From Camelus ferus (Eukaryota), in contig NC_045696.1 in assembly GCF_009834535.1 (NCBI RefSeq), positions 868,001 through 932,000 on the forward strand: 64,000 bases of DNA, read 5' to 3'. A model generated the notes under the pieces. That model ran no database searches. It was not told the origin of the DNA and saw only the letters and a program-made list of their open reading frames with translations. Within the stretch, counting starts at the first letter, position 1, and the number at the start of each line of letters is the position of its first letter. Shown one piece after another: positions 2,446 through 41,439 of the stretch. The translations under genes and the position numbers were made by a program.

Positions 2446-4170
2446 AACAAAATTTCGAAAGGTACTGCAGTTGGAGGGCATTAAAAAGTATCAAGAAGCT
2501 ATAGATCTTACAAGGTTTATTCCAAGAATCAACACCTGGAGTCTCACCAGTGGAATTCTCTACATTGAGAGATGAAAGGAGACAACCCTGGGACCATCTC
2601 AAGAGCAGCAATGAACATTCAGTAAGATGCAGCTCTTATTTTTGATTTCAAAAAACAAGCAACAGTCAAGCACTGGAAGGAAACTTGTGTAGCCGGGTGA
2701 AGACCACGTACCAGACAGCCGCCGCGGCGAGCACACGCGGGCTGAAAGCGCTTGGGGCGAGTCAGCACCAAGGCAATTCAGTCCAGAACCTACAGCAACG
2801 AGAAGCATGGCTGTGCGCAAACACGTAAAAATTGAAGTATCAGAGAAACGGCACAGGGAAAATCCCAAATACAGTAAGTAGAGAATATAAACAAGTTAGG
2901 AAAGAGCTCAGAAGAGAAAACGTACAGCAAGAAAGCTGTAAAGCGTCACTGAAGGCTGGTAACAGAAGAAACCAAGAGACAGCGCCTCCCTCTGTTGGAA
3001 GCTGAATTCTGCTAGAACATCAGCTGTTCACAAGTTAAGCTATAGGTCTGATCCGTTTGAGATGAAATGCCAATCTGATTAACTTTTCAAGTTGAAGATC
3101 ACCCTAGTTTCATCCAGAGATAGAGCAGCCAAGAACAGCCAGGTTTTTTTACATACTGGGATCGTCAGATAAATATACCATAAAACTAAAATAATTCAAA
3201 AAGTAGCAGCACAAGAACGAACAGAGCAACTGAAGGACGCGGGAGCAGGCGCTGGTGTGGACGACAGCTCTGCGTAAGCTGCACGTACAGGGCGCGAGCA
3301 GCTGCCCCAGGCGTCGGGAAGAGGAAGCATTTTTCAACAAGTTGTGTTTTCAGTCTTTGTGAGACAAAGTAACTTACATGTTCCCCTAATAACATACATC
3401 AAACTAACCCCAAGTGGGTTACACAGCCGATGCCAAAGGAAAAGCAGCAAAGAAAACGCAAGCGGCCACCCCGCACTGCAGGGCGAGGAAGGGTTTCCGA
3501 ACGCAAACACCAGAGGAGACATCACATAGGGAAATTCTGAGGTAGGGGCCCAAAGCGCCCACGTCCGATTAAAGGAGAATGACTGTCTGCTGGGGGCCAC
3601 GTCTGTCCCCAACACCACGCTGAATGTCTTCAGTGAAACAGGAGCGCTGACACACGAGGAGGGCGCACGGGCTCTGGCGGAAGGGTCCCCCGCCTGTGCC
3701 AGACTCTGTCCACACGGGAGATGCGGGGAGTTCTGGCGTTTTGCGGGGACAGGAGCCCCACATTTTGGGAGGACAGGAGCCCTGGCACTGCATGCTGCCC
3801 TCATCCGCCAGCTCGAGGGCAGGCTGGCAGCTGCGCAGACGCCTCTTTAACATGTCCCTCGGTGTCCCTCTCCTCTGACCAGGGAGCCCGCGTGGACCAA
3901 GACTGCAGTACGGCCTCGGCACGAGCGGGAGCCGACTTAAGCAAAAGGATGCCGACCTCACGGCCACTGACATCAGTCACAGATTTGGAGAAAACCCAAA
4001 TGTATTTAACAAAAAGGGAATGATTTAAGAAAATAATACCTACATCCATGTAGTGGAAACTACACAACCCTTTAAAAGCAGTGCTCCCAGTCACGTGGCA
4101 CACTTTGCAGCGTACTACCCAATTTAAAAGGGGAACTGAAGCGTGTGCGTATCTTGACCCCAGAGGCCAA
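2446..4170 (+). mobile_element. Highly diverged L1 ORF2 to 3' remnant (old L1M/L1ME type)
   Basis: ggtttattccaagaat...gaccatctcaa and aagttaagctataggtctgatcc align with recalled L1 ORF2 segments; 3'-end-like text at 3980-4160. Confidence 0.6.
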
Positions 4171-8207: not shown

Positions 8208-8278
8208 CTCTCTAAGGGCAGAGTGAGAGGCACCACCAACATGGAACCCTGTGAAAAATCTTCTTTCTGTAGACAGCC
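8208..8278 (-). CDS. Internal coding exon (71 nt): GCLQKEDFSQGSMLVVPLTLPLE(R)
   Basis: Strong acceptor ttttatttttttaacctgtttacag and donor GAG|gtatgc. Phase-0 start matches the 21.5-kb exon. Confidence 0.7.
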
Positions 8279-9329: not shown

Positions 9330-11080
9330 GGGCCACATCAGCACCAGACTAAACCAGGTGCTGCCTCTCAGTGCTGACAACACACCACCAAAGGGCCTAA
9401 GCTTCCCGAGTAACTGAACTACATTCCAAAAAGAAAGTTCAAAATATTTAAAAGAATACAGAACCCAACAACATAAAATCACACTGTCTTTCATCCACTT
9501 AAAAAATACCAGGCATGCAAAGAAGCATGAGAATATACCTCATAATGAGGATAGTTGATCAGTAAGAAAACCTCCAGAAATCACACATGGAAATGATTAG
9601 TCCATAAGGTCCTTAAATCAGCAATTACAAGCACGGTGCACATGTTCAAGACAGAGGCAAGCACAACAAGCCAGGAGAGACTTGAGAAGCATTAAAAATA
9701 GACTCATATCAAGTATCTAGAGATGAAAAATATATCTGAGATGAAGAATACACTAGATGGCATTAACATCACACTAGACACTAGAAAAAGCAAAATCAGT
9801 CAACGTGCAGGCAAAATAATCTGCACAGACAAATGGTCTGAAATGACACAGGGAAAGAGAGACTCCCTCTTCAAAAAAAAAAAAAACCAGAAATATTTGT
9901 GTAACTGGACACTCAGTGGGGAGAACAGGATGGGACGAAAACAATGACAAAAAATTTTAAAACTTATGAACCCATAAATCCAAGACGGTCAGCAATCCCC
10001 AAGCAGGAGAAAACAGGAAGGAAATCAAGCAAAGGAACATGATAACCACCTAACCCAAAGGAGCAAACCTTAAAAGCAGCCGAAGAAAAAAGAAACATGG
10101 TGCACAGAGGGGCAGACAGACATGGTGGACAAAGACTTCCCAGAAACAGCGCAAGCCAAAGCCAACGGAATGACGTCTCTAAAGTAACAACGGGAAGAAC
10201 AGTCAGCCTGAGTTACCATTTACAGTGAAAATAACTTCCAAATACAAAGGCCAAATGAAGACTTTTTCTAACAAGCAAAAGCTAAAATAATTCATCACTG
10301 GCACTTTTAAACTACAAATAATATTAAAGTAGGTCCATCATACAAAAGAAAAATAATATCAGAAGGAAATCTAAATCTACAAAAAGAAATGAAAAACAGA
10401 AAATTCATGAATAAATACAACAGCTTTTTAAATTTTAAAGACTGTTTTAAAAGATATGGACTATTTAAAGCAAAGAATGTTCACAGTGTATTGTGGGGCT
10501 TACAGCAGTGTGGAGGCAAAGCGGCGTGAACAATGACACGGGCCGGGGGAAGCGAGGCGGACGGGCACTGCTGTGAGGCTTACACTCTACGGGAACTGGG
10601 CTGACGCTACTTGAAGACAATGAATCCCAAAGAAACTTCTAAAAACAAAGAGAGATAGCTAATAAGCGAGGAAAGGTGATAAACTTGACCATAAAAAGTA
10701 CTCGGTCCAAATAAGGCAAAAGAGAGATAGAGAAAATCTAATAGCAAATGGGACAAATAGAAAACCAATAGCAAAATGATGGTTAAACTCAATCATATCA
10801 ATAATCACATTAAATACAAATGATCTAAAACATCCTAATTACAATACAGAGACGTCAAGATTGGATAAAAAACAGGACGTCACCATACACCATTTATAGG
10901 AAACTCACTTTACATGTAAAGATAAAATAGGTTAAAGTAAAGGGGATGGGAAAGATGTCCTAATCCTAATCAAAGGAAAGCTGGAAGGGCTACGTTAACT
11001 TCAGATAAAGTAGGTTTCAGAGCAAGGAGTATTATCAGACGTGAAAGAGGACATTACATGATAATAAAGGGGTCAGAACA
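9330..11080 (+). mobile_element. Old L1: ORF1 remnant and ORF2 endonuclease start
   Basis: ORF 9723..9947 (MKNISEMKNTLDGIN...) is ORF1-like. 10790-11075 carries degenerate endonuclease motifs (ITLN.N.L, ETHF, LKVKGW, KAG, HYMIIKG). Confidence 0.85.
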
Positions 11081-16848: not shown

Positions 16849-17594
16849 AGGTTGCTCCCATGTCTTGGCTATTGTAAATAGTGCTGCTGTGAACATTGGG
16901 GTGCAGGTGTCTTTTTGAATTAGAGTTCCCTCTGGATATATGCCCAGGGGTGGGATTGCTGGATCATATGGTAAGTCTGTTTTCAGTTTTTTGAGGAATC
17001 TCCATACTGTTTTCCTTAATGGCTACACCAAACCACATTCCCATCAGCAGTGTAGGAGGGTTCCCTTTTCTCCACACTCTCTCCAGGATTTATCATTCAT
17101 GGACTTTTGGATGGCCATTCTGACTGGTGTGAGGTGATACCTCATTGTAGTTTTGATTTGCATTTCTCTGATAATTAGAGCATTTTTTCATGTGCCTATT
17201 GACCATCTGTATGTCTTCATTGGAGAATTTCTTGTTTCGGTCTTCTGCCCACTTTTGGATTGGGCTGTTTTGCTGTTGTTGTTATTTAATTGTATGAGCT
17301 ATTTATATCTTATGGTTACTGGGGCAAAGGGATGGAAAGGGATAAATTTGGGAGTTTGAGATTTGCAAATATTAGCCACTATATATAAAAATAGATTAAA
17401 AAACAAATTTATTCTGTATAGCACAGGGAATTATATTCAATATCTTATAATAATCTTTAATGAAAAAGAATATGAAAATGAATATATGCATGTATATGTA
17501 TGACTGGGACACTGTGCTGTACACCAGAAATCGATACATTGTAACTGACTCTACTTCAATTAAAAAATTAAAATTAAAATTAAATTTAAAAAAG
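16849..17594 (+). mobile_element. Young L1 3' fragment with inverted 5' part (16849-17309 minus; 17310-17594 plus with A-rich tail)
   Basis: The minus segment is the end of ORF2 (gctattgtaaatagtgctgctgtgaacattgggg...). The plus segment is 3' UTR, ttatggttact...ctacttcaattaaaaaa. Confidence 0.85.
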
Positions 17595-17789
17595 AAGTTA
17601 GATAAACCAGATGAAAAAATCCCTAAAAACAAATATAAACTACACTGATTCAAGAAGAAATAGAAAATCTGACTAGGGATAGATGTAAACAGAGCTGATA
17701 TAGTATAAATGATATATGGAGACACATTGCAATGGAAGAGAATTAAGAATCTGGAAATAAACCCCTACATTTACAGTCCATTGGTTTTT

Positions 17790-18011
17790 TTTTTAACATT
17801 TTTTATTGATTTATAATCATTTTACAATGTTGTGTCAAATTCCAGTGTAGAGCACAATTTTTCAGTTATACATGAACATATATATATTCATTGTCACATT
17901 TTTTTCTCTGTGAGCTATCATAAGATCTTGTATATATTTCCCTGTGCTATACAGTATAATCTTGTTTATCTATTCTACAATTTTGAAATCCCAGTCTATC
18001 TCTTCCCACCC
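17790..18011 (-). mobile_element. 5'-truncated young camelid-type L1 3' end with 18-bp TSD
   Basis: PolyT then aacattttttattgatttataatcattttacaatgttgtg. TSD tacagtccattggttttt at 17772-17789 and 18012-18029. Confidence 0.92.
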
Positions 18012-18031
18012 TACAGTCCATTGGTTTTTGA

Positions 18032-18599: not shown

Positions 18600-20060
18600 G
18601 TCTTCCATAAATTTTAGTCTTGCTTTTCACACTCAGGATTTTATTCCATCTAGAATTCAGTCTCATATATGAAGCATGAGGTATGGATCTAATTTGACCT
18701 TTACCACACGGGTAGAAGGTTATCCCAGCAACATTTACTAAAAGAGCCATTGTTCGCCATGGACTTGTGCTGCATCCTCCCACATTGTGAATTCCTTCGG
18801 GTGTAGGGTTGTAGGGGAGGGGGGTGGGGAGCGTGGGTAGGTGTGGGTGGGTATATGTACAGGTATAGGGAGGCGGGTGGGTGTGGGGGGTGTGAGCAGG
18901 GTAAGTGTGTTCCCTAACTCTGTTGCACTGTCATATTTGCTTACCCCGGTCTAATAATGCAAACCCTAAACAGCACACCTTTATAAGGAGCATTAATATC
19001 TGAAAGGGTAAGTCCCTCTGCTTTTTCCCGAAGGTCGTCAGGATTTTGGAGCCTTACTCCTCCACCCGTATCTTAGAGTCAGTATTTCAGAATCCGTGAG
19101 AAGCCCCGTCAGGACCTGCTCTGTAGCTAACTGACAGACGCCCTGTTAAATACTGATCATTCACACAGGTAACAAGATACAGCTAATACCGTTTAGTTAG
19201 CCTTCTCTTTTTATTTTTTTATCAATCCTGCCAAGAGTTTGAAATTTTGGTTTTTCTTCAAAAGAACCAGTTTTTTACTTTATTACTTACATTTTTCTTT
19301 GATTCCCACTTTACAAATTTGTTCTTAATGCCGTAATTCCCTTCCACTCCCTGCTGCTCTCCTTCGCTGTCCTAACTTCTTAATTTGGACACTTACTTGG
19401 TCAGTTTGGAGCCTTTATTCTTTTCAGGCGCACAACTCCCAGGACACACTCCCCCAGGGCCGTGCGCCGAGGCCCCGGCCCGCCCGCGGTCAGCCTGGTG
19501 CCCCTGCCATGTCGGCCTCACTGGAACGCCTTGCAGTGCTTCTTAAATGTCAAGTATACATACTTTCATTCTCTGTGATCTTATAATTGAAATCTGCCTT
19601 AGCTTCATTTGGTCAGAGAACATGGTCTGAAAGCATCTGAGATGAGACTCATTTGGTCACAATTTTAAAAATGTTTCACATGCACTGAGAGCTCATATCC
19701 TCTCTAATGGGTGCTTATCTTAGTATGAGCCAGGGGTGGAGCTTGTTCCAATCTTGCACACTCGTATTTACGTATTTGTGTCTGACGTGTCCGTTCCTGA
19801 GAAAGGAACATCAAAGCAGCCCTACGACTGCAGAGTTATCAAACTTCACCGTGTAAAGCAGCCCGTTTTTCTGTACATCCTGAGGTGCGGTTACCACACG
19901 TGTGTAAGTTCAGGACCGTTGTACTCTACCACGATTATTTTCTTTTATCATCATAAACTACATTTCACATTAAAAAGCTTTTTGTCCTTTCATGCATTCA
20001 TCTGACTGTAACAGAGCTATACCAGTTTTAACTGCCTAGTATATTTACTTTATATAAATG
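18600..20060 (-). mobile_element. Old L1 ORF2 remnants, antisense
   Basis: ttttagtcttgcttttcacactcagg...ccatctagaattc and ttttcttcaaaagaaccagtttt match reverse-complement L1 ORF2. Confidence 0.65.
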
Positions 20061-20199
20061 ATCAAACTCTCCCACAGAAGACATTATTAAAAGCACTTGA
20101 GTGGACTTTGTATTGTACCATTTAACTCCAACCTCAGGAGCCTCGTGTCCTCATCAAGTCGCTGGGTGCCCTGAAGCACCGGATTTCCTGGAGGGCTGA

Positions 20200-20480
20200 A
20201 TGTCGGCTTTGAGGTAAGAGGTGCAATCAGGGTGGCTCCAAGGCTTTGGTGGAAGCAACTAGACAGTGGGGCTGAGGGCAAAGTTCAGGAGTTCGGTCCT
20301 GAACACGTTAAGTCTGAGATGCTTGCTGGCCTTGAAGGTGGAGATGTCAAACACACAAAACACAAGTTCGTCCAAGGTTGACGGGGGAAACCGCAGGTGG
20401 GAGTCGTCAGAACAGAGAGTGGGTGAGGTCCCCCCAACCCCGAAGGAGTGAGGGAAGAGGAGCCACATGGGAGAGTCAAA
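20200..20480 (-). mobile_element. L2 remnant
   Basis: Minus translation DISTFKASKHLRLNVFRTELL resembles the L2 RT C-terminal motif DISxWMxxxHLKLNxSKTELL. Confidence 0.75.
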
Positions 20481-21465
20481 ACACACGAGTGAAGGCAGCA
20501 TATTCTCTACAGGGTAGGGAGGCCACCAGCCTCCAGAGGAAAAGAAAAGCAAGATAGCTAAACTCGATACACTGACATCCTCCCAGCCCCAGAACTGAGA
20601 CCAAGTCCCAACACAACAGGAGTTTAACCACGCGGCTCTGGGCACGTCCCCACTTCCTCTCAGCTGTCCTAGGAACAGGTCCCCTTCCCCATGCCAACAA
20701 GGAAGAGAACACAACACGCAAAGGAAGAAAACAGAAATCTGGGCAGAGCCCGGACAGCGGACTTGCGAGGAGTCACTGAATCTGAGAAAGATCGTGAAGA
20801 TCGTGAAGAAAGCCACCTGCATGTGACTCAAGGGGACACCTCGGCCTGCGCACACTGTAGAAGCCTGGGTAAGATGGTGCAGGTGCTTCGGTCACCTTGT
20901 GCAGGTGCGTTGGGGGTCAGAAGTCACGTGGCTGCACGTCTTTGGTGTCAATTCTTGTTGTCACTGTCGTCTCTAAGGGCCTACAGACCAGCTAGTGCAC
21001 ACCCTCACCCCCAAGAAGGTCCTGCAGGCCTGTGCCCCAGAGCAGCGGCCAGCAAGGTGGGCACAGCCTGGAGGAGCCCACGTTGTGCGGGGGGAGAGGA
21101 CACACAGAGCCTCACGTTAGAGGAGGGACACGTGGACCGACAGCCATGACGCAAGGGGGGCAACGCTGCCCCCACCGTGCTGCGGTCACAAGCAGTGGGC
21201 TGCCGTCCTCCCAAGGGGGGATGAGGAGGGCCGCAGGGATGACCTGGCATGCTGTGCCAGGCCACAGGGACAGCACTGGACCCGCAGTTTAGACGGGCGG
21301 TCCTGACAGAGGCAAAGCAAGGACAAGGTCAGGGCTCTGCCCCGGGTGTCTGGAACAGAAACTAAGTGAATGGGAAAAGGGGTGGGCTCAGCAGGACAGA
21401 CGGGTGCAGCCAAAGCCAGAGGACCCAGGACATGTGGCGCCGGGGCTCACAGGCTGGGACCTTAC

Positions 21466-21633
21466 CTGAAAGATAACAGGATGCCAAGGACAACTTCTGA
21501 TCAGCGGTGGCTTGTTGAAATCTAGGATTATATCACTACTGGAGTCATTTCCTAAAGTCCAGATAATACATTCGTCCCGAAACTCCCATGCGGTGCGAGC
21601 AGGTGACCTGCGCATCTCACTGCAGAGGCAGCA
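21466..21633 (-). CDS. Internal coding exon (168 nt, 56 codons): CCLCSEMRRSPARTAWEFRDECIIWTLGNDSSSDIILDFNKPPLIRSCPWHPVIFQ
   Basis: Consensus donor CAG|gtaagg. Acceptor gttgaaatag gives phase 0; an alternative acceptor ctctgcag would start the exon at 21619. Same frame as ORF 21388..21615. Confidence 0.7.
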
Positions 21634-21807
21634 CTATTTCAACATGAATTACACAGAAGCAGCCCTCGCCAACAACGTGCTGTCATGATCAGGATACAAA
21701 CGTGGATCTTGAAAACAGCTCAAGCTAATAAGACGTCAGCCACAAACCTATGTTCACACTGTCAGTGGGAGACTTGGAAACGAATCATTTGGAAAAGTCA
21801 GAGTGCA

Positions 21808-22753
21808 CAGTCATACCCCCTCATCCACAGTGGACACGTTCCAGGACCCCTGTGGATGCCTGAAACCAGTGAACAGTACAGAACCCTTTGTGCACTGTTT
21901 TCTCCTGTACGTATGTACCTATGATAAAATTTAATTTATAAATTAGTCCCAGGAAGAGATTAACAATAATAATTAATAGCCTCTCCAGTAATTTTTATAT
22001 TTTTTGGTCCAAACCTATTCCTGAATCTGCAGAAGCACCCTTCACCTGCAGTAAGTGGCTGGTGTCACTCACTTTGGGGGACCCCTTGCTGAAGACTTCG
22101 TACAGGCGCCGTGCCTTCTGGCCCAACACGTTGCCATCAATGTGCCATCGGAACACATCTTCTATTCTTGTCCTTAACCCACAAATCTAATGACTTTTCC
22201 ATCTTAACTAAGTACTTATTATGCACCGTGGCCATAACTTTTGCAGTTTGAGGTGTGACAGCAAAACTAGCACGAGTTTCTTTTTCCTTCTTCACAATTT
22301 CACAGATAGAAGATTCGTTCTTACCGTAGATCTTAGCAACCTCAGCATACCATTTTTTTCTTTCCTCATTAAGTCAAGAGCTTTCACCTTTTCACTTACA
22401 GGAAGAACTGTACAGCATCTCTCTGGCAGAGCTGAACTGCCAGCACCGCTTCTCTTGCTTGTACTTTGGGGCCAGGATCAGTTAAAATAAGGGTCATCTG
22501 AACACAAGCAGTGGGATGCTGGGACAGTCCATCTGATAACAGAGAGGTCTACTAAGTGACTGGTGGGTGGGGCACACTGGACAAAGGGGTGACTCGTGTC
22601 CCAGGCAGGATGGAATGGGTGGTGCGAGATTTCATCACACGACACACATTCATAAACTTATGAATTATTGATTTCTGGAATTTTCCATTTAATAGTTTTC
22701 AACCCTAGGTAACTGAAATTGAAAAGCAAAACTTCAGATAGCAGGACCCACTG
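21808..22753 (-). mobile_element. Tigger7/MER44-type internally deleted DNA transposon with both termini
   Basis: Ends cagtcataccccctcatcc and gatagcaggacccactg|ta. The minus strand holds a frameshifted N-terminal transposase remnant (VLPVSEKVKALDL; YAEVAKIYGKNESSICEIVKKEKE; RFRNRFG). Confidence 0.88.
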
Positions 22754-22834
22754 TATTTGAAAGAGGTACGAGATAGTGTGTCTTCCAAACTGGCTCACCA
22801 AGTGAAAAACACAGCACAACTGCAAATCTGGGGA

Positions 22835-25170
22835 ACTTAGGGAATCACAAATTAAAATAATAATTTTTTATTATTATACCTATTAGAATTGTTAAAATCT
22901 TAAAAAACCAACAATACCAAATGCTGGCAAGGATGCAGAAAAGCAGGAAATCACTCTCATTCATTTCTAGTGGGAGTGAAAATAGCAGCCACTTTGGATG
23001 ATGGTTTGGAAGTTTCTCATGAAACTAAACACAGTGTTACCACATGACTCAGCAATCGTGCTCCCTGGTATTTGCTCGATAGGTTGAAAACTTAATGTCC
23101 AAACAAAAACCTGCACACAAATGTTTATAGCAGCTTTATTCGTGACCCCCAAAACTGGAAGCACAAAATGTCTTTGAATAGGTGAACAAATAAACAAGCC
23201 ACTAGTACATTCACATGATGGAATATTATTCAGCAATAAAAAGAAATGAACTATTAAGCCACAAAAAGAAAAAGATGAATCTTAAATACACATAGCTAAG
23301 TGGAAGAAGCCAATCTGAAAAGGCTACATACTGCACAATTTCAACTGTATGGCATTCTGGAAAAGGCACATCTGTACAGACGGCAAATAGATCAGTGGTT
23401 ATCAGGAGCTCGGGGAAGGTGCTGAACAGCTGATGCACAGAAGTTTTTTAAGGCCGTGAAACTATCACATGTCATGCTGTAATCATGACCACAAGACAGT
23501 AAGCGTTTGTCAAAAGCCAGCGAACTTTACAGCATGAAAAGTAAATCTTAATGTATGCAATTCTGAAAAACCACTTAGGATGTCAAGAGAATCCAAGATG
23601 GAATGTGGACTGTGACAAAAGACTAACTGTACTACAAATGCAAACCTCCCCGAAGCGAGTGGGGAGTAAGGGGCTGATGTAAGCATCTCTGGAAATGAGT
23701 GGAGTCTAGGAGAGAAAAGGCAAAAGGAACTGTACTCAAGGCTGTACTCTAGTTGATAAAGTTGTTTCCCAAGGGACACAAGTTACTAACTCTACTACTG
23801 CTGTGCATGTGCTGGACCCAACAATTCAGTCACGGATGGGACGGTGGGAGCCAGGTATGTCAGTGTTCAAGGGGGCGGTTACACGTCAGGAAGGGGAGGA
23901 GGCTAGAAGGGTCCATGCTGGGGGAACTGGAGCTGGAAATGTCAGCACGAGCTGATGTTTAGCTCAATACAGATACAGATGGTTCCATCCAGAGGTATTT
24001 ACAAGCTCCGCCAGCCAAGAGGGCCTGGAAGTAACAATACCTCAGTAGCAACAAGCGCACGGGTGCCCAGATATCAGTCTCTCATACCCTTTTCTGATGA
24101 AAGGCACCAGGCTCCCGGTTTCCCGGACGGGGCAGGACACACGCAAAATGACCCTAGAGCATCTTGTAGTCCTGGAAAGGAAAGCTACACCTGAACACAA
24201 AACCAAGGAAACACATGGGCACAACGGTCAGGGCGTCACAGGGACACAGAACAACTCCCTCGGCCAAAGCTGGAACAGTTGAGCAAAAGCATAAAGAAAG
24301 TAGCAGAAGACTCTAAGCCAAAGTAGAAAATAAACACCCGTGGGTCCGACCTGACTTCAGTAAACGACTGGCGAGCAAACCGGGAGACGAGGGAATCTGC
24401 TCCCAGGAGAACCCACGTCGGTTCAGCCGCTGCTCCGTCCTCAGGGAGGGGGGCGGACCCCCTCCTCGGGTGCTGGTGTGCACAGCACGGCGACCTCCTT
24501 CCGGGGGACAGTGGGGGGACAGCCGTGCGGCGGAGAGACCCCACAGACACCCCCACACCAGGTGACCAAGGTCAGCGGCCGCGGTGAAGGTCGTGGGGAC
24601 GGTCGTGCTGACGGCGCACCCTGGACGGGCCGTGATGAGAAGGGCCCTCTCCTCTGTGGTCTTCCTCCCAAAATCTACACCCTCCAATCTAATCAGCAGA
24701 CAAATTCCAACAGAGGAACATTATACAAAATATTTAACCAATACTCCTCCAATCTCCATCATAAACAAGGAAAGTCTGTGGGCGGAGTATAGCTCAGTGG
24801 TAAAGCGCGTGCTTAGCACACACGAAGTCCTGGGTTCAATCCCCAGCACCTCCACTAAAAAAATAAAAACAAATAAAAAGTTAAAAATTTAAAAAACAAA
24901 CAAACAAGGAAAATCTAAGAAAGAATCACAGCCAAGAAGAGCCTGAAGAGACATGACAAATGTATTCTGGGACAGAAAAAGGACAGCAGGGAAAAACCAA
25001 AGAAATCCACAGTATGGACTTCAGTGAATGACAACGAATCAACATGGGTCCATTAATTATGACAAATGCACCCGACTAATGTAAAATGTTAAACTGGGTG
25101 TGAGGTGTACAGGAATTCTCTGTGCTATCCTTACTATGATTCCATAAATCTAAAACTGTTCTAAAGAAGT
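22835..25170 (+). mobile_element. L1 3' end with long 3' UTR (L1MD/L1MC-like)
   Basis: ccaaatgctggcaaggatgcag...catgactcagcaatcgtgctccctgg; terminal taaatctaaaactgttctaaa. Confidence 0.85.
24778..24901 (+). mobile_element. tRNA-derived SINE (Vic-1-like) with 15-bp TSD
   Basis: A box tagctcagtgg, B box ggttcaatccc, A tail. TSD aaacaaggaaa(g/a)tct at 24763-24777 and 24902-24916. Confidence 0.93.
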
Positions 25171-25220
25171 TTGTTTTTTTTTAAAAAACCAGCAGTTAAA
25201 GGAAAAAACACAAAGGTCAC

Positions 25221-25463
25221 CAAGTTTTCTTTAGTCTGTGCACGGTGGGGAAACAGAAACTTCCTCCCAGGGCTGTCCAGTTCAGAAAGATTGTCGTGTG
25301 TCTTAAGACTTGGTATTGCAGAAATCAGAGGGAAGGTGTTTTGGCTAGAAGGTCCAAGTTTACAGGAAATGTTCAAGATATTATCGTTGGGGCACCTGGT
25401 AAGTTGTTGTGTTTTTAAGATGCAAAGTGTCTTCCCTCCCACCACGGTATGTGACCTGCTTAG
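25221..25463 (-). CDS. Internal coding exon (243 nt, 81 codons): LSRSHTVVGGKTLCILK...FPHRAQTKENL
   Basis: Acceptor tttgttctgcatttgttacag; donor TTG|gtgacc is weak. Lies in ORF 25161..25472, phase 0-0, in non-repetitive sequence. Confidence 0.6.
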
Positions 25464-25649
25464 CTGTAACAAATGCAGAACAAAGCGTCTGCAGTGCTTC
25501 AGTAATATTTCAAATTCTTACACTGAATATCAGCATAGGACGGTGAATATTCTGGAAGGCAGGCATCAGTTTTGGACATGATTCAATTCTCACACCCGCT
25601 GGTCACCACCTTGATGGCAGCCCCCTTTTGCTGTTCCTCCCAATTCCTG

Positions 25650-25810
25650 ACACACCGGGTACTTTGTGGGCACTGCCACCCTCCTCACACCAACTCAGCA
25701 AGACAGCTCTATTAGTTCCATTTTCCAGAGGTGGAACCTGAGGCCCAGGAAGGCCAAATGGTTTGTCCATAAGCTTCACAGCTACAAGCAAGGGAGCCAG
25801 CCTTTAAACT
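25650..25810 (-). mobile_element. MIR SINE remnant
   Basis: ttccattttccagaggtggaacctgaggcccagga matches the reverse-complement MIR core. Confidence 0.7.
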
Positions 25811-26799
25811 CCCACCTGCCAGGCACTGAAGCCAGTCCAGGTTCTGCCCGAGGGCCCCTGGCCTCCCTGCACTCAGCCAGGGGTACAACCAGGTGGCTGC
25901 CACCCAGGGCCTCGCCCGGCCATGGGCAGAGCTCACTGGTCAAGCTGACATTTTCACAAACAGTGCAAATACTCCTGGGGGAACAAAGGGCCCTTCCTAC
26001 ATGGAGACAGATCAGGAGTCATCTTAAATCTGTGCCCTTGAAACAGAGCCAGGGTCTAAAAGCTTTTACGGAACCACATGCATCACAGTCATCAATATGC
26101 CATTAGATCCTGGACATTAATTCTCTAAAAGTATTTCTGAACCTTTGAAAGGATTAACCCTTTACTGTATTAAACGCACCCCTCCTCCCGTAAGCTACAG
26201 TTGCTGGCTTTTCTCTTCCCACTTACAATGGACATTGACTTTATTTTTCCACCTCCATTCAGGTCACTTGGACGAAGAGGTTTTGCTACAGACCCCTTTC
26301 ACTTTACTCCCCGAGTATTACGAGGATCCCCTTCAGCTGCCAACAGCTCTATACTCCCAAATCTCACGCCTCAAAGACACTGGCCTTCCCGCGCTGGCTA
26401 ATTGATCCACATGGGGTCGCACGAGGGTTCAGGGAGTCACAGACCACAGGGGCACACAGGGTCCCCAAAGTCTCCCAAGAGAACTGGACAGGGTTTTAGA
26501 AGTCACCTAACCTAACTGCTTCTTGGGGGACTCCGGGTGCCCAACCTCTCGCGGCCACCTGCTCCCACAGGGTGGCCAGAGCCCCGTCCCCACCCTCACG
26601 GTCACCTGGCTGTCACTCTCCCCAGCGCAACTGTCATCCTAAGTGTGCTCCTTTCACACACAGCCAGTCGAATCCTATTTCCAAACCACAGCCTCTCAGA
26701 CAGCTTAGGAGGCGCAGAGGGGAAAGTCAGCTCCTCCTTCCGGGACAGCTTTTCCTGAGTCGGACTAACCTTCCTCGGCCCGGCAGCAGGCTGTCACGC

Positions 26800-26925
26800 A
26801 CGGTGAAGCAGGACCAGGCTCTGCCGTTGGAGAGGCCGGGGCTGAATCCTGACACCTGCACTAGCAGAACGACCTTGGGCGAGCTCCTTGATGCTAGTGA
26901 ACCTCAGCAGCCTCCTCACCTGTGA
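26800..26925 (+). mobile_element. MIR SINE remnant
   Basis: ggctgaatcctgac...gaccttgggcgagctccttga...gaacctcag...cctcacctgtga resembles the MIR core. Confidence 0.6.
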
Positions 26926-27637
26926 GCAGCCAGCGTCCAGGGCTGCGACAGCACCGTGGGGCAGCCCGCGGAGCACACGGCATCCCCGACCTGTCACCTG
27001 CCTGCACGCACCTGTCCAGCCTGCTCGCAGGCAGCACACAGCGGGGCGGGGCAGGGCCTGGAGGGGCAGCATCTCCACCCTCCGGATACCGTGCTCCTAC
27101 TCGCACAACCTGGACTCACCAGCTGCCCTCGGCCACCAGCCTGATCAGGCCTCAAAGATGGCTCAGGAGCCCTGACCGGGGCCTCTCCCGGAGGGCCAGA
27201 GGGGCCGGAGGGGCCCACGTGGAAGGAAGACCCCTAGGCCTCACACCGACCAGGCCGCAGCCCACGTGGTTAGGGACCCCGGCATTCACGTGCACAGTCA
27301 GGTCTGAGACGCACTGGCCCAGGGCCCTAGAGACCAAAAAAAGTCTTTCAATTCTAAGGTTTCTTTCAGGGAACATTTCAGAATAGAAAGCATTCTTTCT
27401 TTCCCACTCCTGCTATTAATAACCTGTGTGCACACTGAGTCAGCATGGAGGGCAAACAGAGGCTGCTTCAAGGGTCTGGAAATAAAAGTTGTAAAAACGG
27501 GGGAAAAGCAGCGTGCTGACAAAGCCCATAACCAGGAGATTTTCCTGTCGCCTTTTCCACCGACCTCCCTCTGAGCACTTTCTCCTTTGATCAAAGTTTG
27601 CAGAGCTAAGTATTGATTTTTTTAAATAAACAAATAC

Positions 27638-27683
27638 CGTATTCCTAGAAGTGAGTCTCACTGGGGACTGGAGCAAAGTCAAA
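27638..27683 (-). CDS. Internal coding exon (46 nt) of an unidentified minus-strand gene; xLTLLQSPVRLTSRNT
   Basis: Strong acceptor gttccttttcctcttcag and donor ACG|gtattt. One open frame ends in phase 0, matching the next exon. Confidence 0.6.
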
Positions 27684-28125
27684 CTGAAGAGGAAAAGGAA
27701 CAGCAAGGCACAGGTGTCTCTGACGACTTCCGGGAGCCAGTGGGCTCAGCCCTGCGTGTCCGCGTGACCAGCACCGCCGCCTCCATCAGCCAAGAGCTTC
27801 TTAACCTAAGCTGCTAAAAGGCCCTTCTGTGCCATCTGGGATTTGTGCTAACTGAACCAGCAATTGCTGATGAAGCCAAAACCTCCCCTCCTTCTAGAGC
27901 ATTTACTGCATGTGGGGAGGGACGTGGTGGGGGGAGGAAAGCCAGCAACAGGGGCAATAATGAACTCCTCACACACCAGCGTGTGTGACCCTGACCAGGA
28001 GAAAACCAGTCGTCGGGGCCCCAGGCCGGAAACAGCAGGATCAATAAACGCACCCCCAGCACTCCAAGGCCTGACCTCCGGGGCTGGGGGCCGCGCACTG
28101 TGTTTCTGCAAAAGTCCCCCGTGAC

Positions 28126-28218
28126 TTTCCTGTGCCGTCAGGGTGGAGAAGCTGCTCCAGGAGCAAGATTTGCTGAGATTCTTTACAACCACCATTTTGC
28201 AGGAGTGAGGTGGGTTTC
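28126..28218 (-). CDS. Possible upstream coding exon (93 nt, phase 2-2): KPTSLLQNGGCKESQQILLLEQLLHPDGTG
   Basis: Acceptor gtgttgtgtcctag and an open frame compatible with the 27.66-kb exon, but the donor AAA|gtcacg is poor. Confidence 0.25.
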
Positions 28219-28430
28219 CTAGGACACAACACCGCTAACGTCATGGGGCGGTGACTGGGTGTCCTGAATGTGGAGGAGTCTCTAAGACAGACAGACAGAC
28301 TGGTGCTCACAATGACATAACTGCCCACGTACACGCACAGTGCTCTGTCCCAGCACGCTCACCTTCAAGCGGACCAAAATAGTGAACCCGAGGCCCAGCT
28401 GACGCTTCAGCTCTGCCTCCCGGGCTATGG

Positions 28431-28611
28431 CAACGGTCAGCAAACACTGCCCACAGCCCGTGTCTGTACAACCTGAGAACTGAGAATGGTTTCTATGATT
28501 TTAAAAGGTTGAGAAAAAAAGAAAAGAATGGAAGACAGAGCCCACGTGTGGCCCACACACATAAAATACTCACCATTGTGGACCTCCATAGAAAGCGCCT
28601 GCGGACTCCTG
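28431..28611 (+). mobile_element. MER58-type hAT MITE (MER58C-like)
   Basis: ggtcagcaaac...gagaatggttt...gacagagcccacgtgtggccc...aaaatactcaccatt...gactcctg. Confidence 0.75.
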
Positions 28612-29951
28612 GGTTGCGGCAGCCGCAGTTGGGATGCCCCAGCGTGGGGCCACACCGGCAGGCACTTTCTCTGCCAACCTCAAAGCCAAAGAAAGACCTG
28701 AAATGCCCTGAAAGGTGGAAATGTGCTCAGTCACCCTAAGACCCTCAAGAGAAAACAGCCACCAACAGCCCAGAGGCTGCTGTCTCCATGTGCACGAGGG
28801 GAGCGTCCAGCCCAGTGAGCCCAGGACTGGCAGCCCAGGTCTCCGCAGGCACCTCGGCTGGTGAGGGGCCAGGCCTGCTCAGGCCCTGGCTGGTCCCTTA
28901 CCTACTGGGCCGGGCCTCACTGTGCCACCAAAGGAAAGCGCCAAGACTCCCAGGGGAGCCTTGAATCCCAAGACGCTGCTGGGACTAATGCCAACAGGAA
29001 CATCCCTGCGCAGCCTAAGGGGCCAATATAGCCATGCTGTCCACGGTTAAACGAGGCGCTGGCCGATGGTGGGGAAGGATGTCAGAACGCCAAACACACA
29101 AGAGTGTGCTACACTCAGGAAGCCAAGCCTAGAACCTTGCCCCGCAGACAGCAACAAGGTGCTAATAAGAAGGGCCCGCGGAGGTCTTCCTGCTGGGCCC
29201 GGGCGCCTCTCCACTTCTGGCCCAGGAGGCTCTGCTGACAGACTCCAACCAGCTCAGCAAACCAGAAAAGGAGGCGCACTTCCCCAAGACAGCCTCCCTG
29301 GAAGCTGCCTGAACAGCACTAACCAGGCTCCCCGAAGCCAAAGGAAAGCAGGATTTGGTTATCTGCAACATCACTGGCGTAAGGCACGAGTCGGACGGAG
29401 GTGCTCTGCCGGGCTCCCGCTCTGTATCACAGCCCTGTGCAGGCCACGTGCTCACAAAATTGATTTAGGAGAGATTATTCATCTCCATTTTACATTTTCA
29501 TGTTCTGGAACTCTGCCAGCAGCAGCTCTTGTTCTTCCAGGGGTCAGGAAGCGGCAGACAAGGCGATCTCCTGCTGCTGTAAACGGAGCCCCACTTCCCC
29601 TTATGAATCTCCTGTCCATTTTCAAATTACTTCAAATACGATTGCCCTTCATTGAGACAGTGTTTTATGTCTCCACGTCTACCTTCTGCCGTGCCTGGTT
29701 ACCTGCTGGCTGCAGGCAGCTCTCCCTCGGAGCCCCCAGGCGCCTGTGTCGGAGGCAGCGTGCGCAGACAGGGCAGGGAGGGGCCCCTGCAGCCTCCGGT
29801 TCCAGCAAGCTTGCTGAGCGCAGCCAACAGAACCAGTACGTCTTGCATTCTAAAAATCCCTGCTCCTGGCCCCGCTTCCCCCACCATCATGTGCCTTATT
29901 CTCTTTTGTGGGAAACACGTGACAGATCATTGCTGTCTTCTGCCCACGCTG

Positions 29952-29996
29952 CACCGCCCTCTGTCACAACACACCGCCCTCTGTCACAACACACCG
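29952..29996 (+). repeat. 20-bp tandem repeat caccgccctctgtcacaaca, 2.25 copies
   Basis: Directly visible in sequence. Confidence 0.95.
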
Positions 29997-30199
29997 GTGG
30001 CTCCATTCTTACAACCCCTGTTCACTGTGTCTGTCTTTCCCAACAATGTGAAGCTCCTTGGGGCAGGGTCTTCATCTATTCTGTTCACCCGGAAAAGGGC
30101 CTGGTAGCAATCTATAAATTTGAATTTAAAAACTGTTGGTCTCAAACCCTGAGTTTCCAAGAAACTAAAGTAAAAAGGGAAGTAAATGAGTTTCAATTT

Positions 30200-33100
30200 T
30201 GACTGTGTTCTCAGTGTCTGAGGAACAGCAAGGATGCCCACATGGTTAACATCAGCTGGGGCGACTGGCAGGAGGTGAGTCTGGGAGCAGGCAGAGGCCA
30301 GGTCATGTGAAACCCACGACCACTCTGCCCTGTATTATGAGGGACACAGGAGACTCCAGAGAGTTAGATAGCAGATGGCATGATCTAATCTATGTTTTTT
30401 AATTAAACTTTTCATTTTGAGATAATTGTAGATTTATATGCAGTTGTAGAAATACTACAGAGATAATCCATGCAACTTTAGCCCACGTCCCCCAAGAGTG
30501 ACATCTTGCCAAATGAAAGCACAATCTCACCACCAAGATATTGACAGTTGACACAATCAAGATATAGAGCATTTCTTTCCCCACAAGGATGCCTCACGTT
30601 TCACTTTCACAGACACAACCACATCCGTCCCACCCCCATCTCCTCCTTAACCCCTGGCAACCACTAATTTGTTCTCCATTTCTGTAATTCTCTCATTCCA
30701 AGAATGTTATATACATAAACAGAATCATACAGTAGATAACCTCCAAGACTGCCTTTTTTCACTCAGCCTGATTCTCTGGGGATTCATCCACGTTGCGTCC
30801 TGTGTCTGTAGGTCAGCCCTTTTTATTGCCACGTAGTGCTCCGTGGTACAGATGCGCCATAGCTTGTTTAATCATTCATCTACTGAAGAACGTCTGGGTG
30901 GTTTCCAGCACGTGGCTATTGCAAATACACCTACTATGAACATTTGTGAACAGGTTTTTTCCGTGAACATAGTTTTCATTCCTCTGGGATAAATGTACAG
31001 GAGTATACATTGCTGTGTTGTGTGGTAGTTACAAGTTTAGTTTTATAAGGACCTACCAAACTGTTTTCCAGAATGGTCGTATCATTTTACACTTGCCTCA
31101 ACACTGTATGAGATCCAATTCCTCCACATCCTCACCATCATTTTTTTAATCTTAGTCCTTCTGATGTATGTGCAGCGATACCTCACTGGGTTTTAATTTA
31201 CATTTGCTGAATGACTAATGATGTTGAACACCTTTCCATGTGCGTATCTGCTGTCTGTAGCTCCCTCGGTGAAATGCCTCCTGTCCTCCACAGAGTTTCT
31301 AACTGTATTATCTACTTTTTTACTGTTGAGTTTTGATAGTTCTTCATATAGCCCATTATCAGTCTTTTCTCAGATATGTGTTTGCAAACATTTCTCCTCT
31401 GTAGCTTGTCCTTTCATCCTCTTACAGATTGTTTTGCAGAGAAAAAGTTTTTAATTTTGAGGAAATCGAATTTATCAATTTTCCTCTTATAAATGACATT
31501 TGGTACTAGGTCCAAGAACTCTTCCCAGCTCTTTCCCTAGAATGTGAAATTTTCTCATATTTTTCCTAAGTTTTATAGTTTTACATTTTAGATTTGAGTT
31601 TGAGATCTATTTTGTGTTAGTTTTTGTATAAGGTGTGAAACATAGATTGAGGTTCATTTTTTTGCCTATGGGTGTACCATTTGTTGGAAAGGCTATCCTT
31701 CCTCCATTGAATTGCTTTTGCAGTTCTCAAAATCACTTGAAAAAATAATTTCACAAAAATTATTTGTGCATACTTCTGTGGTTTTCTGTACCATTTTCTA
31801 TACTGGGTTCCCTATACTGTTCCACTACCCTCTGTGTCTATCCTTCCAACAATATCACATCATCTTGATTACTGTGGCTATAAAATTAGTTCTGAAACTG
31901 GGCAGACTGGTTCCTCTCACTTTATTCTTCCTTTTCAAAACTGTTTTAATTATTTTGGTTCCTTTGTTTTCTATATTTACTTTGGGGTTAGCTTGTCTAT
32001 ATCTATAAAAAATTTTGCTGCAATTTTAATAGAAACTGCATTAAACCTGTATGATAATTTGATAAGACTAGACATCTTTACTGTGTTGAATTTTCCAATC
32101 CATGAACATGGTATGTCACTCCATTTATTTAGATAAACTTTGATTTCTTTCACCAGGATTTTGTATTTTTCAGCATAAAGTCCTATAAATGTCATGTTAG
32201 ATTTACAACTACTTGTTTGTTCATTCTTCAGAAAGTATATTGCATCTTAAATTTTAGTGTCCACATGTACATTGACAGTATACAAAAATAAAATTGATTA
32301 TTGTGTGTTTGTTTTGTATTGTGCAACCTTGCAGAACTCATTTATTAGTTCTACATTTGTGGTTTTTTGGTCTTGTTTTTGTAGATTCCTTGGGATTTTC
32401 TACATAGATAATCGTGTCATCTGCAGATATGTACAACTTTATTTCATCTTTTCTGATCTGTAGGCCTTTTCTTTTCTTATTTTATTGCACAGGATAGAAC
32501 TTTCAGGACCACAGGAAGTAGGAACCTACATCTTGTCCTATTTCTGATCTTTGGGAAAAATCATTTAGTCTTTCATTATTAAGTATAACATTAGCTGTAA
32601 GTTTGTGTAGATGCTGCTTATCAAGCTGAATAACTTCGCCTTTATTCTTAGTTTTCTGAGAGTTTTTAATCAGATGTTGGATTTTGTCACATATTTCATT
32701 ACATTGAGTGATGTGATCATTTGGGTGTTCTTCTTTACTATGTTAATAAGATATATCACACAAATTGATTTTCACATACTGAACCAAGCTTGCATCCCTG
32801 GTACAAACTCCACTTGGTTATGGTGCACAATTATTTGTATGTATTGCAAAACTCTGTTTGGTAATATTTTGCTGCAGATTTTTCCACCTATATTCACAAG
32901 TGATGCTGGTCTGTATTTTTAATGTCTTTTTATGGCTTGAATACAAGGGTAATACTAGCTTTAAAAAATTGACTGGGAACTGTTCAGTCCTTATATATCT
33001 TTTGGGAAATACAATTATCAAAATTAAAAACTCAATGGATGGGCTCAAAAGCAAAAAAAAAAAAAAAAAAAAAATGGAGGAGTCAGATGAAAGAATCAAT

Positions 33101-38609: not shown

Positions 38610-41254
38610 GAGGCCAATGTTATCTTGATACCAAAACCAGATGAAGACATTATAAGAATAAAAACCTATGGGCCACCACCTCTCATGTAGCTAGACACTA
38701 AAATCCTTGAAACATTCTCAAATGAAATCCAGAAATATTTTAAAAGGATAAAACATCACACCCAAATGAGATTTATCCCAAGAATGCAAGGTTGGTGTAA
38801 CATTCATCATTCCCTGTAATTTTATTGACATATTAACAGAATAAAGAAGAAAAACCAGATGACCATCTCAACAGATGCAGGAAACATTTAACAAAATTTA
38901 GCACCCACTGATGATAAAAATTCTAAACAAACCAGGGACAGGAATTCTTTCAACCTACTTAATATCTATCTTCATACTTAAAGGTAAAATACTAAACGCT
39001 TTCCTCCTAAGACTAGCAACAAGGCAAGGTTGTCCTCTCACATCACTGCTATTCAACACTGTGCTGATACCCACAGCATGAATTAAACTCAAAAGTATCA
39101 CATCAAGTGAAAGAAGCCAGATAGAAAAAGAGTTTGTGGTGTATGATTACATTAATACAAAATACAAAGTCCTCTAAAATGACTGTGTTTTCTGGGACCC
39201 AAGGGGTGAGCAAGGAGTGGACCATAAAGGGACACAAGGAATCTCTTGGGGTGATGGGAATGCTCTGTCTCGTGACTGGACACAACTGTCTGAACTGGTC
39301 AAACTATACATTTTAAGTAGATGAAGTGCATTTTACATAAATCAGTCCTCAATGAATTTTATAAGAAAAAACTGATCAATATGTTTAAAAACAAAAGAGA
39401 TGAACAAATGGATGAAAAATGAAAAATTTCAACAGTCTTGGGCTCTACAGAAAAGTAATCAAATCAACATTCTACAATTGAAAATCATAACATCTGCCAT
39501 TAAGAACTTGTTGAATGTGTTTAAAAAAAAAAAAAAAGTAGCCAGAACAGAAGACACAATTAGAGGAACTCAGACAGGTCCAAGAAAAAATATCTAAACT
39601 TTTTGATATTTGTATCTAAAACTGAAGTTCAGAGAGAAAGAGTATAAAAAAAGAATGAAAACAGTGTAGAGCATAAGAGATGTATGTGACATGGTCAAAA
39701 GTCTCACATACGTGTAATCAGAAAGAAAATGGGAAAGAATAGGGTAACAGCAGCATGTGAATGAATAATGGCTGAGAATTTTCAAACCTTATTAAAGAGT
39801 CAGTGCATAATTCAAAAAGCCCCATGAACCCCAAGTAGGATAAACACAAAATATGCACATACACATGTACATGTACAGGCACAAAGAGAATCTTAAAATA
39901 TCAGGCAAAGAAAGCACATTTTTTTCTTTGAAACAACAAAAGGCTGACTTTTCAACAAGTACTATAAAAGCCTATTGCAAATGCTGACATATTTAAAATG
40001 CTTCAATAAAACAACTGTCAACCTAGAATTCTACACCCAGTGGAAATAGTTTTCAGAAACGAAGGGAAACTAAGCATGTTGTTCTCAGGCAAAACTCTAG
40101 AGAATCTGCCATCAACAGACCTGCACTATAAAAATACCTTTAGTTCTTCAGGCTGAAAGGAAATACTCCCAAATACAAGAACATCAGAAAAGGTAAATAT
40201 ATGAACAAATATTTTTAAATACTAACTGCTTAAAACAGAAAAAATGTTGGATTTATAACATACATAGAAACAGAAATGTATGACCATATCAGAGTAGTCT
40301 GTAATAAGTCATGATGTAATTGAAATCTTAACTTAAGATTTAACTTAACCATTAACTTTATAATATAAGAAGAATAAATAAGAATCTAGGAGATTAAAAC
40401 AATTAAATGAAAAATGCCTGATTAATCCAAATAAAGGCAGGAAAGGGGGAATAAAGGAACAAAGAACTGATAGAACAAAAATAAAACAAATATAAGATGG
40501 TAGAATTAAGCCCAATATTTCAAAAATCAAATTAAAAGTAAATAAACACTCCAACTAAAATGGAAAGATTGTCAGACAATTAAAATGATTACACCCACTT
40601 TAAAAGAAGCATAATTTAAAAGTAAGGATGCAGTCGGGTTCATAAAATAGAAAACGCTGTACCACACAAACACTAAGCAAAGGAAGCTGGGGTGACTTTA
40701 CCATCAGACGAAACTGACCTTAAGGGAAACATAGAAGCAGAGAAAAAGGACATTTCATAATGATAAAAGGGTCAATTCAACGAGAAGCCATAAGACCTTA
40801 AGCTGGTATGCAACTAATACTGTCTGTTTAAAATACACAAAGCAAAAACAGAACTAAAAAGGAGAAGAGATAAATCCACAATCATAGTTGAAGATTTTAT
40901 CATACCATGACACTAACATGTGTTAAATAAATTTGGCAAGGCCACTGGACAGAAGGTCAATATGCAAAACTCATCTGCATTTCTATATAGTAGCAACAAT
41001 GTCAACAAAAAATTCTCAGAAATAAATCCAACAAAACCTGTGCAAGACCTCTACACTAAAAACAAAACATCACTGAACGAAATTAAAGACAACATACATG
41101 GAGGAATAAACCATATCTTTAATTTAGAATACTACAAAAATGTCAATTCTCCAAACTGCTCTAGGGAACCAAAACACCCCAATCAAAATTCTAGCATATT
41201 TTTTGCATAAATTGGTATGCTTATCCTAAAGTGATAAAGATATGCAGAGGACTT

Positions 41255-41298
41255 AGAATAGTGCAGCCAGTCTAGAAGAATAGTGCAGCCAGTCTAGA
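41255..41298 (+). repeat. Perfect 22-bp tandem duplication agaatagtgcagccagtctaga x2
   Basis: Directly visible in sequence. Confidence 0.95.
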
Positions 41299-41439
41299 CA
41301 AACCCAGGTGGGGGGCCTCCGCGACCCGGCATCGGCCCCACGGTACAACTACGGTGACCAGCACAGCGGCACTAACTACCACACAGAGAAACGGGTCAAT
41401 GAAACAGAACAGAGTTTAGAAACAGATCACACACGTAAG

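What the first reader, a model, noticed from the sequence alone, without database searches (positions are those of the whole stretch)
24340..24655. Sharp A/T-to-G/C substitution burst inside an L1 3' UTR: candidate fossil gBGC hotspot
Seen: about 300 bp very rich in GC and CpG, within an otherwise AT-rich collinear L1 end. Against my recalled L1MD consensus, AATAAATGATTGAATAAATAAA reads agtaaacgactggcgagcaaac, and GGTGATCAAGGTTAACATCAACAGTGATAAGTCATG reads ggtgaccaaggtcagcggccgcggtgaaggtcgtg. The flank 24660-25160 stays near consensus. Established: old repeats normally lose CpG and drift towards AT, and clustered weak-to-strong changes are the signature of GC-biased gene conversion. Inference: a lineage-specific recombination hotspot that created a de novo CpG-rich patch.
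Basis: partly seen in the sequence, partly recalled or inferred. Interest (0 to 1): 0.7.

Follow-up and report, generated by a model that had tools for sequence, protein, structure and literature searches.

The report
GC-rewritten patch in dead L1
A 300-base stretch of an old, dead jumping-gene copy is far richer in G and C than the rest of it, most likely because recombination once favoured G/C bases there; this is a clear but ordinary example of a known process.

Summary
The patch is real: 24340-24655 has GC 0.68 and 27 CpG, the most CpG-dense stretch of the window. Best-fit edges are 24380-24669, and independent runs hold it. It lies downstream of an L1 ORF2 end. Its left flank is a 52% GC shoulder, not AT-rich.

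The central claim, A/T-to-G/C change against the L1MD consensus, could not be tested for this patch: no call returned a consensus, orthologue or sister 3' UTR. Support is indirect. Four shorter patches in other old L1 pieces of the window have the same CpG density and can be polarised against sister copies. Three pooled give W>S 86/172 versus 187/733 in flanks; the fourth gives 47:8 pairwise. The host L1's ORF2 end is unbiased. No insertion hallmarks were found.

Best reading (0.78): a footprint of GC-biased gene conversion, the largest of a local cluster. This is a known class (gBGC tracts, BGC-made CpG islands). The scan has noted the same kind of patch on other DNA, including 1.3 Mb away in this genome. 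Age, methylation and PRDM9 dependence remain open.

The parts
24380..24669 (.).
   Evidence: 9, 8 and 10 CpG in three consecutive 100-bp bins
23800..24379 (.). Left shoulder, GC about 0.52; either the GC-richer ancestral part of the L1 3' UTR or a weaker part of the same tract (undecided)
   Evidence: 281/540 G+C for 23800-24339 versus 265/727 for 22834-23560, p 3e-8
22834..23555 (+). Host L1: end of ORF2 and start of the 3' UTR; the ORF2 end (22834-23430) shows no W>S bias
   Evidence: in-window sister copies; ORF2p match E 0.0066; W>S 54/307, S>W 69/179
24670..24779 (+). AT-rich right flank, presumed L1 3' UTR; sharp edge of the patch
   Evidence: GC 0.38 and 0 CpG for 24656-24779; L1 identity recalled, not tested
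24780..24899 (+). tRNA-derived SINE with A-rich tail inserted in the L1; keeps 4 CpG, no W>S excess
   Evidence: W>S 3/30, S>W 5/44 against three sister SINEs; camelid SINE label is recalled
24900..25176 (+). Distal 3' end of the host L1 (AT-rich)
   Evidence: GC 0.37; weak match to the L1 tail at 30401-30551(-), 4 of 1000 shuffles, but not the best hit in the window; subfamily label L1MC/L1MD recalled
2681..2780 (.). Sister patch E in L1 ORF2
   Evidence: W>S 22/49, S>W 2/18, 10 CpG against 4 sister copies
10480..10620 (.). Sister patch B in an old L1 (ORF1-ORF2 spacer by position; inferred)
   Evidence: W>S 35/68, S>W 7/26; patch-only homology to the best sister copy 0 of 1000 shuffles
19420..19545 (.). 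Sister patch C in L1 ORF2 (minus strand)
   Evidence: pairwise 47:8 versus 70:50 in flanks, one sister copy only; patch-only homology 36 of 1000 shuffles
41300..41400 (.). Sister patch D in L1 ORF2
   Evidence: W>S 29/55, S>W 8/30, 8 CpG against 3 sister copies

Best explanation
The patch is old L1 3' UTR sequence rewritten in place. A meiotic recombination hotspot sat here; heteroduplex repair favoured G/C alleles at A/T:G/C heterozygous sites, so new W>S mutations fixed several times faster than elsewhere and S>W ones less often. New CpGs arose as a by-product. The patch is the longest of at least five such footprints in old L1 DNA in a GC-rich, probably distal-chromosome region. It needs no function. 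Shown: composition, edges, L1 context upstream, and W>S excess in four sister patches. Inferred: collinearity and polarity of this patch, recombination as the cause, and the chromosomal position.
For: (1) No 316-bp window inside six other old-L1 blocks exceeds GC 0.46; this patch has 0.68. (2) Of 292 100-bp bins alignable to an in-window sister sequence, 287 have at most 4 CpG, one (the patch edge) has 5, and four have 8-10. Those four are exactly the four bins in which at least 75% of W/S differences have S here; one bin falls at or below 25%. The main patch has 9, 8, 10 CpG per 100 bp, the same class. (3) In three of those patches, polarised by the majority of 3-4 sister copies, W>S is 86/172 versus 187/733 in flanks and S>W 17/74 versus 93/230; 64 of the 86 are transitions. 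(4) 21 of their 27 CpGs face neither CpG nor a TpG/CpA majority in sister copies, so they are gains, not survivals. (5) GC is raised outside CpGs too, 0.62. (6) No tandem array, no flanking direct repeat of 7 or more bases, no protein or RNA relative, no unusual fold (z -1.12). (7) Size fits: median gBGC tract length at B=10 is 276 bp in human and 198 bp in chimpanzee, and tracts cluster near chromosome ends (PMC3744432, passages).
Against: No ancestral sequence for the patch itself was obtained from any call, so W>S here is inferred by analogy. The sister patches were picked for their GC excess, so their p-values are inflated; the copies are only 50-65% identical and alignments are noisy. Patch-only homology was significant for 1 of 3 comparisons of B and marginal for C. 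Some bins rest on spurious AT-rich alignments. The left shoulder shows that this 3' UTR may have been GC-richer than ORF2 from the start. No recombination, polymorphism or methylation data.
Confidence: 0.78

Rival explanations
1. Retention, not gain: this part of the L1 3' UTR was GC/CpG-rich when it inserted and stayed unmethylated, so it decayed less than its flanks.
For: CpG 27 exceeds GpC 22 and CpA o/e is low (1.10), showing little CpG decay. The left shoulder is already 52% GC. The SINE 125 bp away keeps 4 CpG while two of its three full sister copies keep none.
Against: GC outside CpGs is 0.62, which CpG protection alone would not give from an L1-like start. In the sister patches the CpGs are gains.
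Confidence: 0.08
2. An unrelated GC-rich piece (gene or CpG-island fragment) was inserted into, or replaced part of, the L1 3' UTR.
For: The right edge is sharp (GC 0.72 to 0.45 within about 80 bp), and no call showed homology of the patch to any L1.
Against: No flanking duplication; no poly-A at either edge in the sequence; no tandem period; no protein or RNA relative. The left edge is graded, and the purine fraction 0.54 lies near that of the host L1 (0.57-0.61; weak evidence).
Confidence: 0.07
3. The W>S shift is real but was caused by selection for a regulatory element (enhancer or CpG-rich site) or by a local mutational bias rather than by gene conversion.
For: The stretch meets Gardiner-Garden island criteria (criteria recalled). 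TpA is scarce, 1 observed against 7.8 expected.
Against: Five patches in unrelated parts of different dead L1s, with about half of A/T sites changed, is more change than selection on binding sites plausibly needs. They share no 7-mer beyond chance (5 observed, 22 of 200 shuffles as many). Both W>S gain and S>W suppression are seen, as a fixation bias predicts.
Confidence: 0.06
4. Assembly or sequencing artefact.
For: GC-rich short patches can be miscalled.
Against: 20 indexed runs from 7 studies hold 75-93% of the sampled words of 23800-25200, 19 of them at least 81%, while the patch accounts for about a quarter of the words; one run carries a second organism label. One run may be the window's own source.
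Confidence: 0.01

Closest known systems
gBGC tracts / biased clustered W>S substitutions (phastBias; Capra et al. 2013, PMC3744432, passages seen; Dreszer et al. 2007 recalled only)
   Same: Short, clustered GC gains in neutral DNA; a few hundred bases long at strong B; several tracts close together; GC-rich regional setting.
   Different: Those tracts were called on a 6-Myr branch with outgroups. Here the shift is read against repeats about 100 Myr old (age recalled), reaches about half of A/T sites in the sister patches, and the branch is unknown.
CpG islands made by biased gene conversion (Cohen, Kenigsberg and Tanay 2011, recalled and named in a scan note; Bell et al. 2012, PMC3469460, passages seen)
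   Same: New CpGs as a by-product of GC gain in non-promoter DNA.
   Different: Methylation is unknown here. CpG outnumbers GpC in this patch, whereas Bell et al. expect acquired GpC to outweigh CpG over time if the CpGs are methylated.
PRDM9-independent (default) hotspots at hypomethylated CpG islands (Joseph et al. 2024, PMC11161765, passages and sections 8 and 12 seen) and dog GC peaks (PMC4053742, passages seen)
   Same: GC gain tied to CpG-rich DNA; such hotspots are active in many mammals that have PRDM9.
   Different: Those are promoter-like loci, with GC peaks of about 1 kb; this is a 0.3-kb patch in a dead L1 and it fails the GC-peak threshold. Camelids are not named in the main text of that paper.

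Membership tests
gBGC tract | Cluster of lineage-specific W>S substitutions in this stretch, polarised by outgroup or consensus | not testable with these tools
   No orthologue, consensus or sister 3' UTR was returned (paper searches and supplements).
gBGC tract | W>S excess with S>W deficit in neighbouring, polarisable patches of the same composition (clustering of tracts) | tested here: met
   the patches were chosen after seeing the data
gBGC tract | GC gain not confined to CpG sites | tested here: met
   GC 0.62 without CpGs versus 0.35-0.38 in the AT-rich L1 parts and 0.49 in the shoulder
gBGC tract | Fixation bias in polymorphism (W>S derived alleles at higher frequency) | not tested
   No variant data were obtained for this stretch.
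gBGC tract | Overlap with a recombination hotspot or high-recombination, distal region | tested here: inconclusive
   GC-rich setting. A scan note puts DSCAM 3.56 Mb away on the same piece, which by recalled synteny suggests a distal region; not checked.
L1MC/L1MD 3' UTR (host element) | Follows an L1 ORF2 end on the same strand | tested here: met
   (weaker, E 0.17)
L1MC/L1MD 3' UTR (host element) | Aligns to the subfamily 3' UTR consensus through 23560-25176 | not testable with these tools
   The label is recalled; only a weak match of the last 140 bp to another L1 tail in the window.
CpG island (Gardiner-Garden; criteria recalled) | At least 200 bp, GC above 0.5, CpG o/e above 0.6 | tested here: met
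   316 bp, 0.684, 0.73; merged stretch 24190-24788, 0.569, 0.66; 31 such stretches in the window
CpG island (Gardiner-Garden; criteria recalled) | Unmethylated in the germ line | not testable with these tools
   No methylation data; CpG above GpC is only suggestive.
Dog-type GC peak (Axelsson definition as given in PMC4053742) | 500-bp window with 1.5-fold the GC of its 10-kb background | tested here: not met
   24200-24699 averages 0.61 against about 0.51 for 20001-30000, ratio about 1.2 (hand calculation)
PRDM9-directed hotspot | Shared or eroded binding motif at the patch centres; intact PRDM9 in the lineage | tested here: inconclusive
   No excess of shared 7-mers among six patches, but different alleles and erosion would hide one; camelids are not named in the main text of PMC5519329.

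The most novel reading that the evidence does not exclude
Dead L1 DNA in this genome seeds its own long-lived, PRDM9-independent hotspots. A brief burst of conversion makes a small CpG-rich patch, the patch loses methylation and keeps attracting breaks, and it ratchets up to a de novo CpG island. The window would then show the series: 100-140-bp seeds with about half of A/T sites changed, this 300-bp patch with CpG above GpC and a 580-bp shoulder, and the 810-bp, ~85% GC block noted 1.3 Mb away (scan note, untested). Reaching GC 0.68 needs 45-76% of A/T sites changed, 3-7 times background over the whole life of the L1 (conditional on assumed ancestral GC), which is a lot for one short-lived hotspot.
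Probability: 0.12. Interest if true: 0.6.

Novelty: new member of a known kind. Interest (0 to 1): 0.25.

Why it matters
If the reading holds, it is one more clean case of a well-described neutral process: recombination rewriting dead DNA toward G/C and creating CpGs without selection. Its practical value is as a marker. Old repeats with a known ancestor let past hotspots be mapped in a species without a fine recombination map, and five such footprints in about 30 kb of old L1 suggest that this region could be mapped that way. It would matter more if the patch proved unmethylated and still active, because that would give a testable route from a transient hotspot to a new CpG island.

Tried and rejected
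Looking for an ancestral proxy for the patch:
- In-window: BLAST, nhmmer and transition-aware alignment found no sister copy of the distal 3' UTR.
- No whole genome is held for this window.
- Motif scans gave 0, 0 and 35 loci in viral contigs, 14 in metagenome contigs and 20 in genome contigs. None of the 69 loci matched beyond 27 bases. The one CpG-depleted locus, L009, is a chance match.
- An ORF2-end protein query found no viral-contig locus. Plasmid and phage BLAST gave nothing but one tRNA-like hit to the SINE.
- Three open frames over the patch found no protein relative. The representative search gave 3 low-complexity repeat proteins. Atlas best score 0.76.
- Full-text searches for window motifs found 0 papers. 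Readable supplements of PMC9252281, PMC8620236, PMC4971623 and PMC10091562 lack the motifs. Supplements of PMC1395351 (.doc) and PMC5872511 (.fas.fasta) could not be read, and none is listed for PMC8605555; these may hold L1 consensus or aligned copies that bear on the central claim.

Rejected: tandem repeat, structured RNA, coding exon (no strong candidate over the patch among the 18 listed by a rough splice scan), shared motif among patches, dog-type GC peak (ratio 1.2). The weaker bin 39201-39300 was not pursued because its homology to sister copies was doubtful. The SINE next to the patch cannot date it, because it lies beyond the patch edge.

Full report
What is there. The window is mammalian DNA, a mosaic of GC-rich unique sequence and AT-rich old L1 blocks. 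I take it to be camelid from the look of its tRNA-derived SINE; that label is recalled and comes from no call. The stretch 24340-24655 has GC 0.684, 27 CpG and CpG o/e 0.73. It is the most CpG-dense 316-bp stretch of the window, where the best outside has 25, although 31 island-like stretches exist in the 64 kb. Both strings quoted from the window are exact, at 24359-24380 and 24561-24595. A changepoint fit puts the edges at 24380 and 24669, with GC 0.52 to the left and 0.365 to the right; 0 of 40 permutations reached the observed gain. The right edge is sharp. A SINE starts at 24780 inside the right flank.

It is not an assembly error. Of 23 runs listed, the 20 indexed ones, from 7 studies, hold 75-93% of the sampled words of 23800-25200, and 19 hold at least 81%; the patch makes up about a quarter of those words (the quarter is my estimate). 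One holder carries a second organism label. The best holder may be the window's own source.

Host element. 22834-23425 matches seven other L1 pieces of the window by nhmmer, one match extends to 23555, and a 33-residue frame matches human ORF2p residues 1150-1178 (E 0.0066; a second frame E 0.17). So an L1 ORF2 end lies on + about 800 bp upstream of the patch. The last 140 bp before 25176 resemble another L1 tail in the window (4 of 1000 shuffles), but two unrelated places score higher, so this is weak. That everything between is L1MC/L1MD 3' UTR is recalled.

The untested step. The claim that matters is the direction of change in the patch, and it needs the ancestor. I sought one in the window, in three contig collections, in plasmid and phage records, among predicted proteins, and in papers and supplements, and found none. 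Variant and orthologue data were not obtained either, so the age of the patch and whether the bias still acts are open.

Indirect test. Other L1 pieces in the window do have sister copies. I tiled the window and counted, per 100 bp, sites where this copy has G/C and a sister has A/T, and the reverse. Of 292 alignable bins the median share is 0.50; four are at or above 0.75 (2701, 10501, 19401, 41301) and one at or below 0.25. Some bins rest on spurious AT-rich alignments. CpG counts are bimodal: 287 bins have 0-4, one (the edge of the main patch) has 5, and the same four bins have 8-10. The main patch has 9, 8 and 10 in three consecutive bins. Polarised by the majority of 3-4 sisters, the patches show W>S / S>W of 22/49 and 2/18 (2681-2780), 35/68 and 7/26 (10480-10620), and 29/55 and 8/30 (41300-41400). 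Pooled, W>S is 86/172 against 187/733 in flanks and S>W 17/74 against 93/230. The fourth patch, 19420-19545, has one sister and shows 47:8 against 70:50. Of 27 CpGs in the three polarised patches, 21 face neither CpG nor a TpG/CpA majority in sisters, 3 face TpG/CpA, 2 face a CpG in at least one sister and 1 faces gaps, so most are gains. Controls: the host L1's ORF2 end gives 54/307 and 69/179, and the sister copies of 10480-10620, treated as focal, give 9/48, 15/49 and 18/66 W>S over the same columns. Limits: the patches were selected for GC excess, identities are 50-65%, and homology of the patch alone was clear for one of three comparisons of 10480-10620 (0, 65 and 153 of 1000 shuffles) and marginal for 19420-19545 (36 of 1000).

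Alternatives. There is no tandem array, no flanking direct repeat of 7 or more bases, no Rfam match over the patch, no unusual fold and no protein relative. GC stays at 0.62 when CpGs are removed, so protection of CpGs alone does not explain it unless the ancestor was already GC-rich. No 316-bp window in six other L1 blocks passes GC 0.46, though none of them is the homologous 3' UTR.

Mechanism. Non-crossover repair transmits G/C in about 68% of single-mismatch events, and typical tracts are under about 100 bp (10.1101/428987, passages). Tracts predicted from this bias are a few hundred bases long at strong B and cluster near chromosome ends (PMC3744432, passages). A 300-bp peak among several 100-140-bp peaks fits. 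Starting from an assumed ancestral GC of 0.37-0.52, 45-76% of A/T sites must have changed, 3-7 times the background measured in the host L1. That needs either a very hot, short-lived hotspot in a large population or a long-lived one. The narrowness suggests motif-directed hotspots (inference); CpG above GpC, 27 against 22, where the host L1 has 8 against 34, suggests little decay since, so a young or unmethylated patch (logic from PMC3469460, passages). PRDM9-independent hotspots at hypomethylated DNA are active in many mammals with PRDM9 (PMC11161765, passages and sections 8 and 12). Neither that paper nor PMC5519329 (passages) names camelids in its main text. The data here cannot choose between the two routes.

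Novelty. This works like, and probably is, a gBGC tract that has made a small CpG-rich patch; membership is not proven, because the defining polarisation was not testable for this stretch. It meets island criteria by sequence and fails the dog GC-peak threshold (definition from PMC4053742, passages). The scan has noted the same kind of patch before: 1.3 Mb away in this genome (e1-7801595) and in other genomes (e1-7856378, e1-7856341, e1-8046534); these are unchecked notes and were not counted as support. I make no claim that camelid patches of this kind are absent from print; my searches (listings only) were not built to show that. Verdict: composition confirmed, interpretation likely (0.78), new member of a known kind, interest 0.25.

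Noticed in passing
window 2681-2780, 10480-10620, 19420-19545, 41300-41400: Four short GC/CpG-rich patches inside old L1 pieces with W>S excess against in-window sister copies; unlike the main patch these can be polarised from the window alone.
   Followed up: yes
window 47878-47954: A tRNA-derived SINE copy with W>S 12/30 and S>W 6/43 against three sisters and 6 CpG, in AT-rich surroundings. If real, a GC-biased episode younger than the SINE family.
   Followed up: partly
window 23800-24339: GC shoulder (0.52, 15 CpG) left of the patch, with a G-rich run near 23840-23925; ancestral or part of the tract is undecided.
   Followed up: partly
window 8208-8278, minus strand: Candidate 71-bp exon with good splice signals in a rough scan; the window's A>T skew on + fits an intron-rich gene on the minus strand. 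Gene not identified.
   Followed up: no
window 17322-18013: Two young L1 3' ends in opposite orientation close together (inverted arms 17401-17452 and 17916-17967, 87% complementary).
   Followed up: no
window 41255-41298: A perfect 22-bp tandem duplication lies directly left of the W>S patch at 41300-41400.
   Followed up: no
window 39201-39300: GC 0.52 bin with 115:43 S-here excess inside an AT-rich block; homology to sister copies doubtful.
   Followed up: partly
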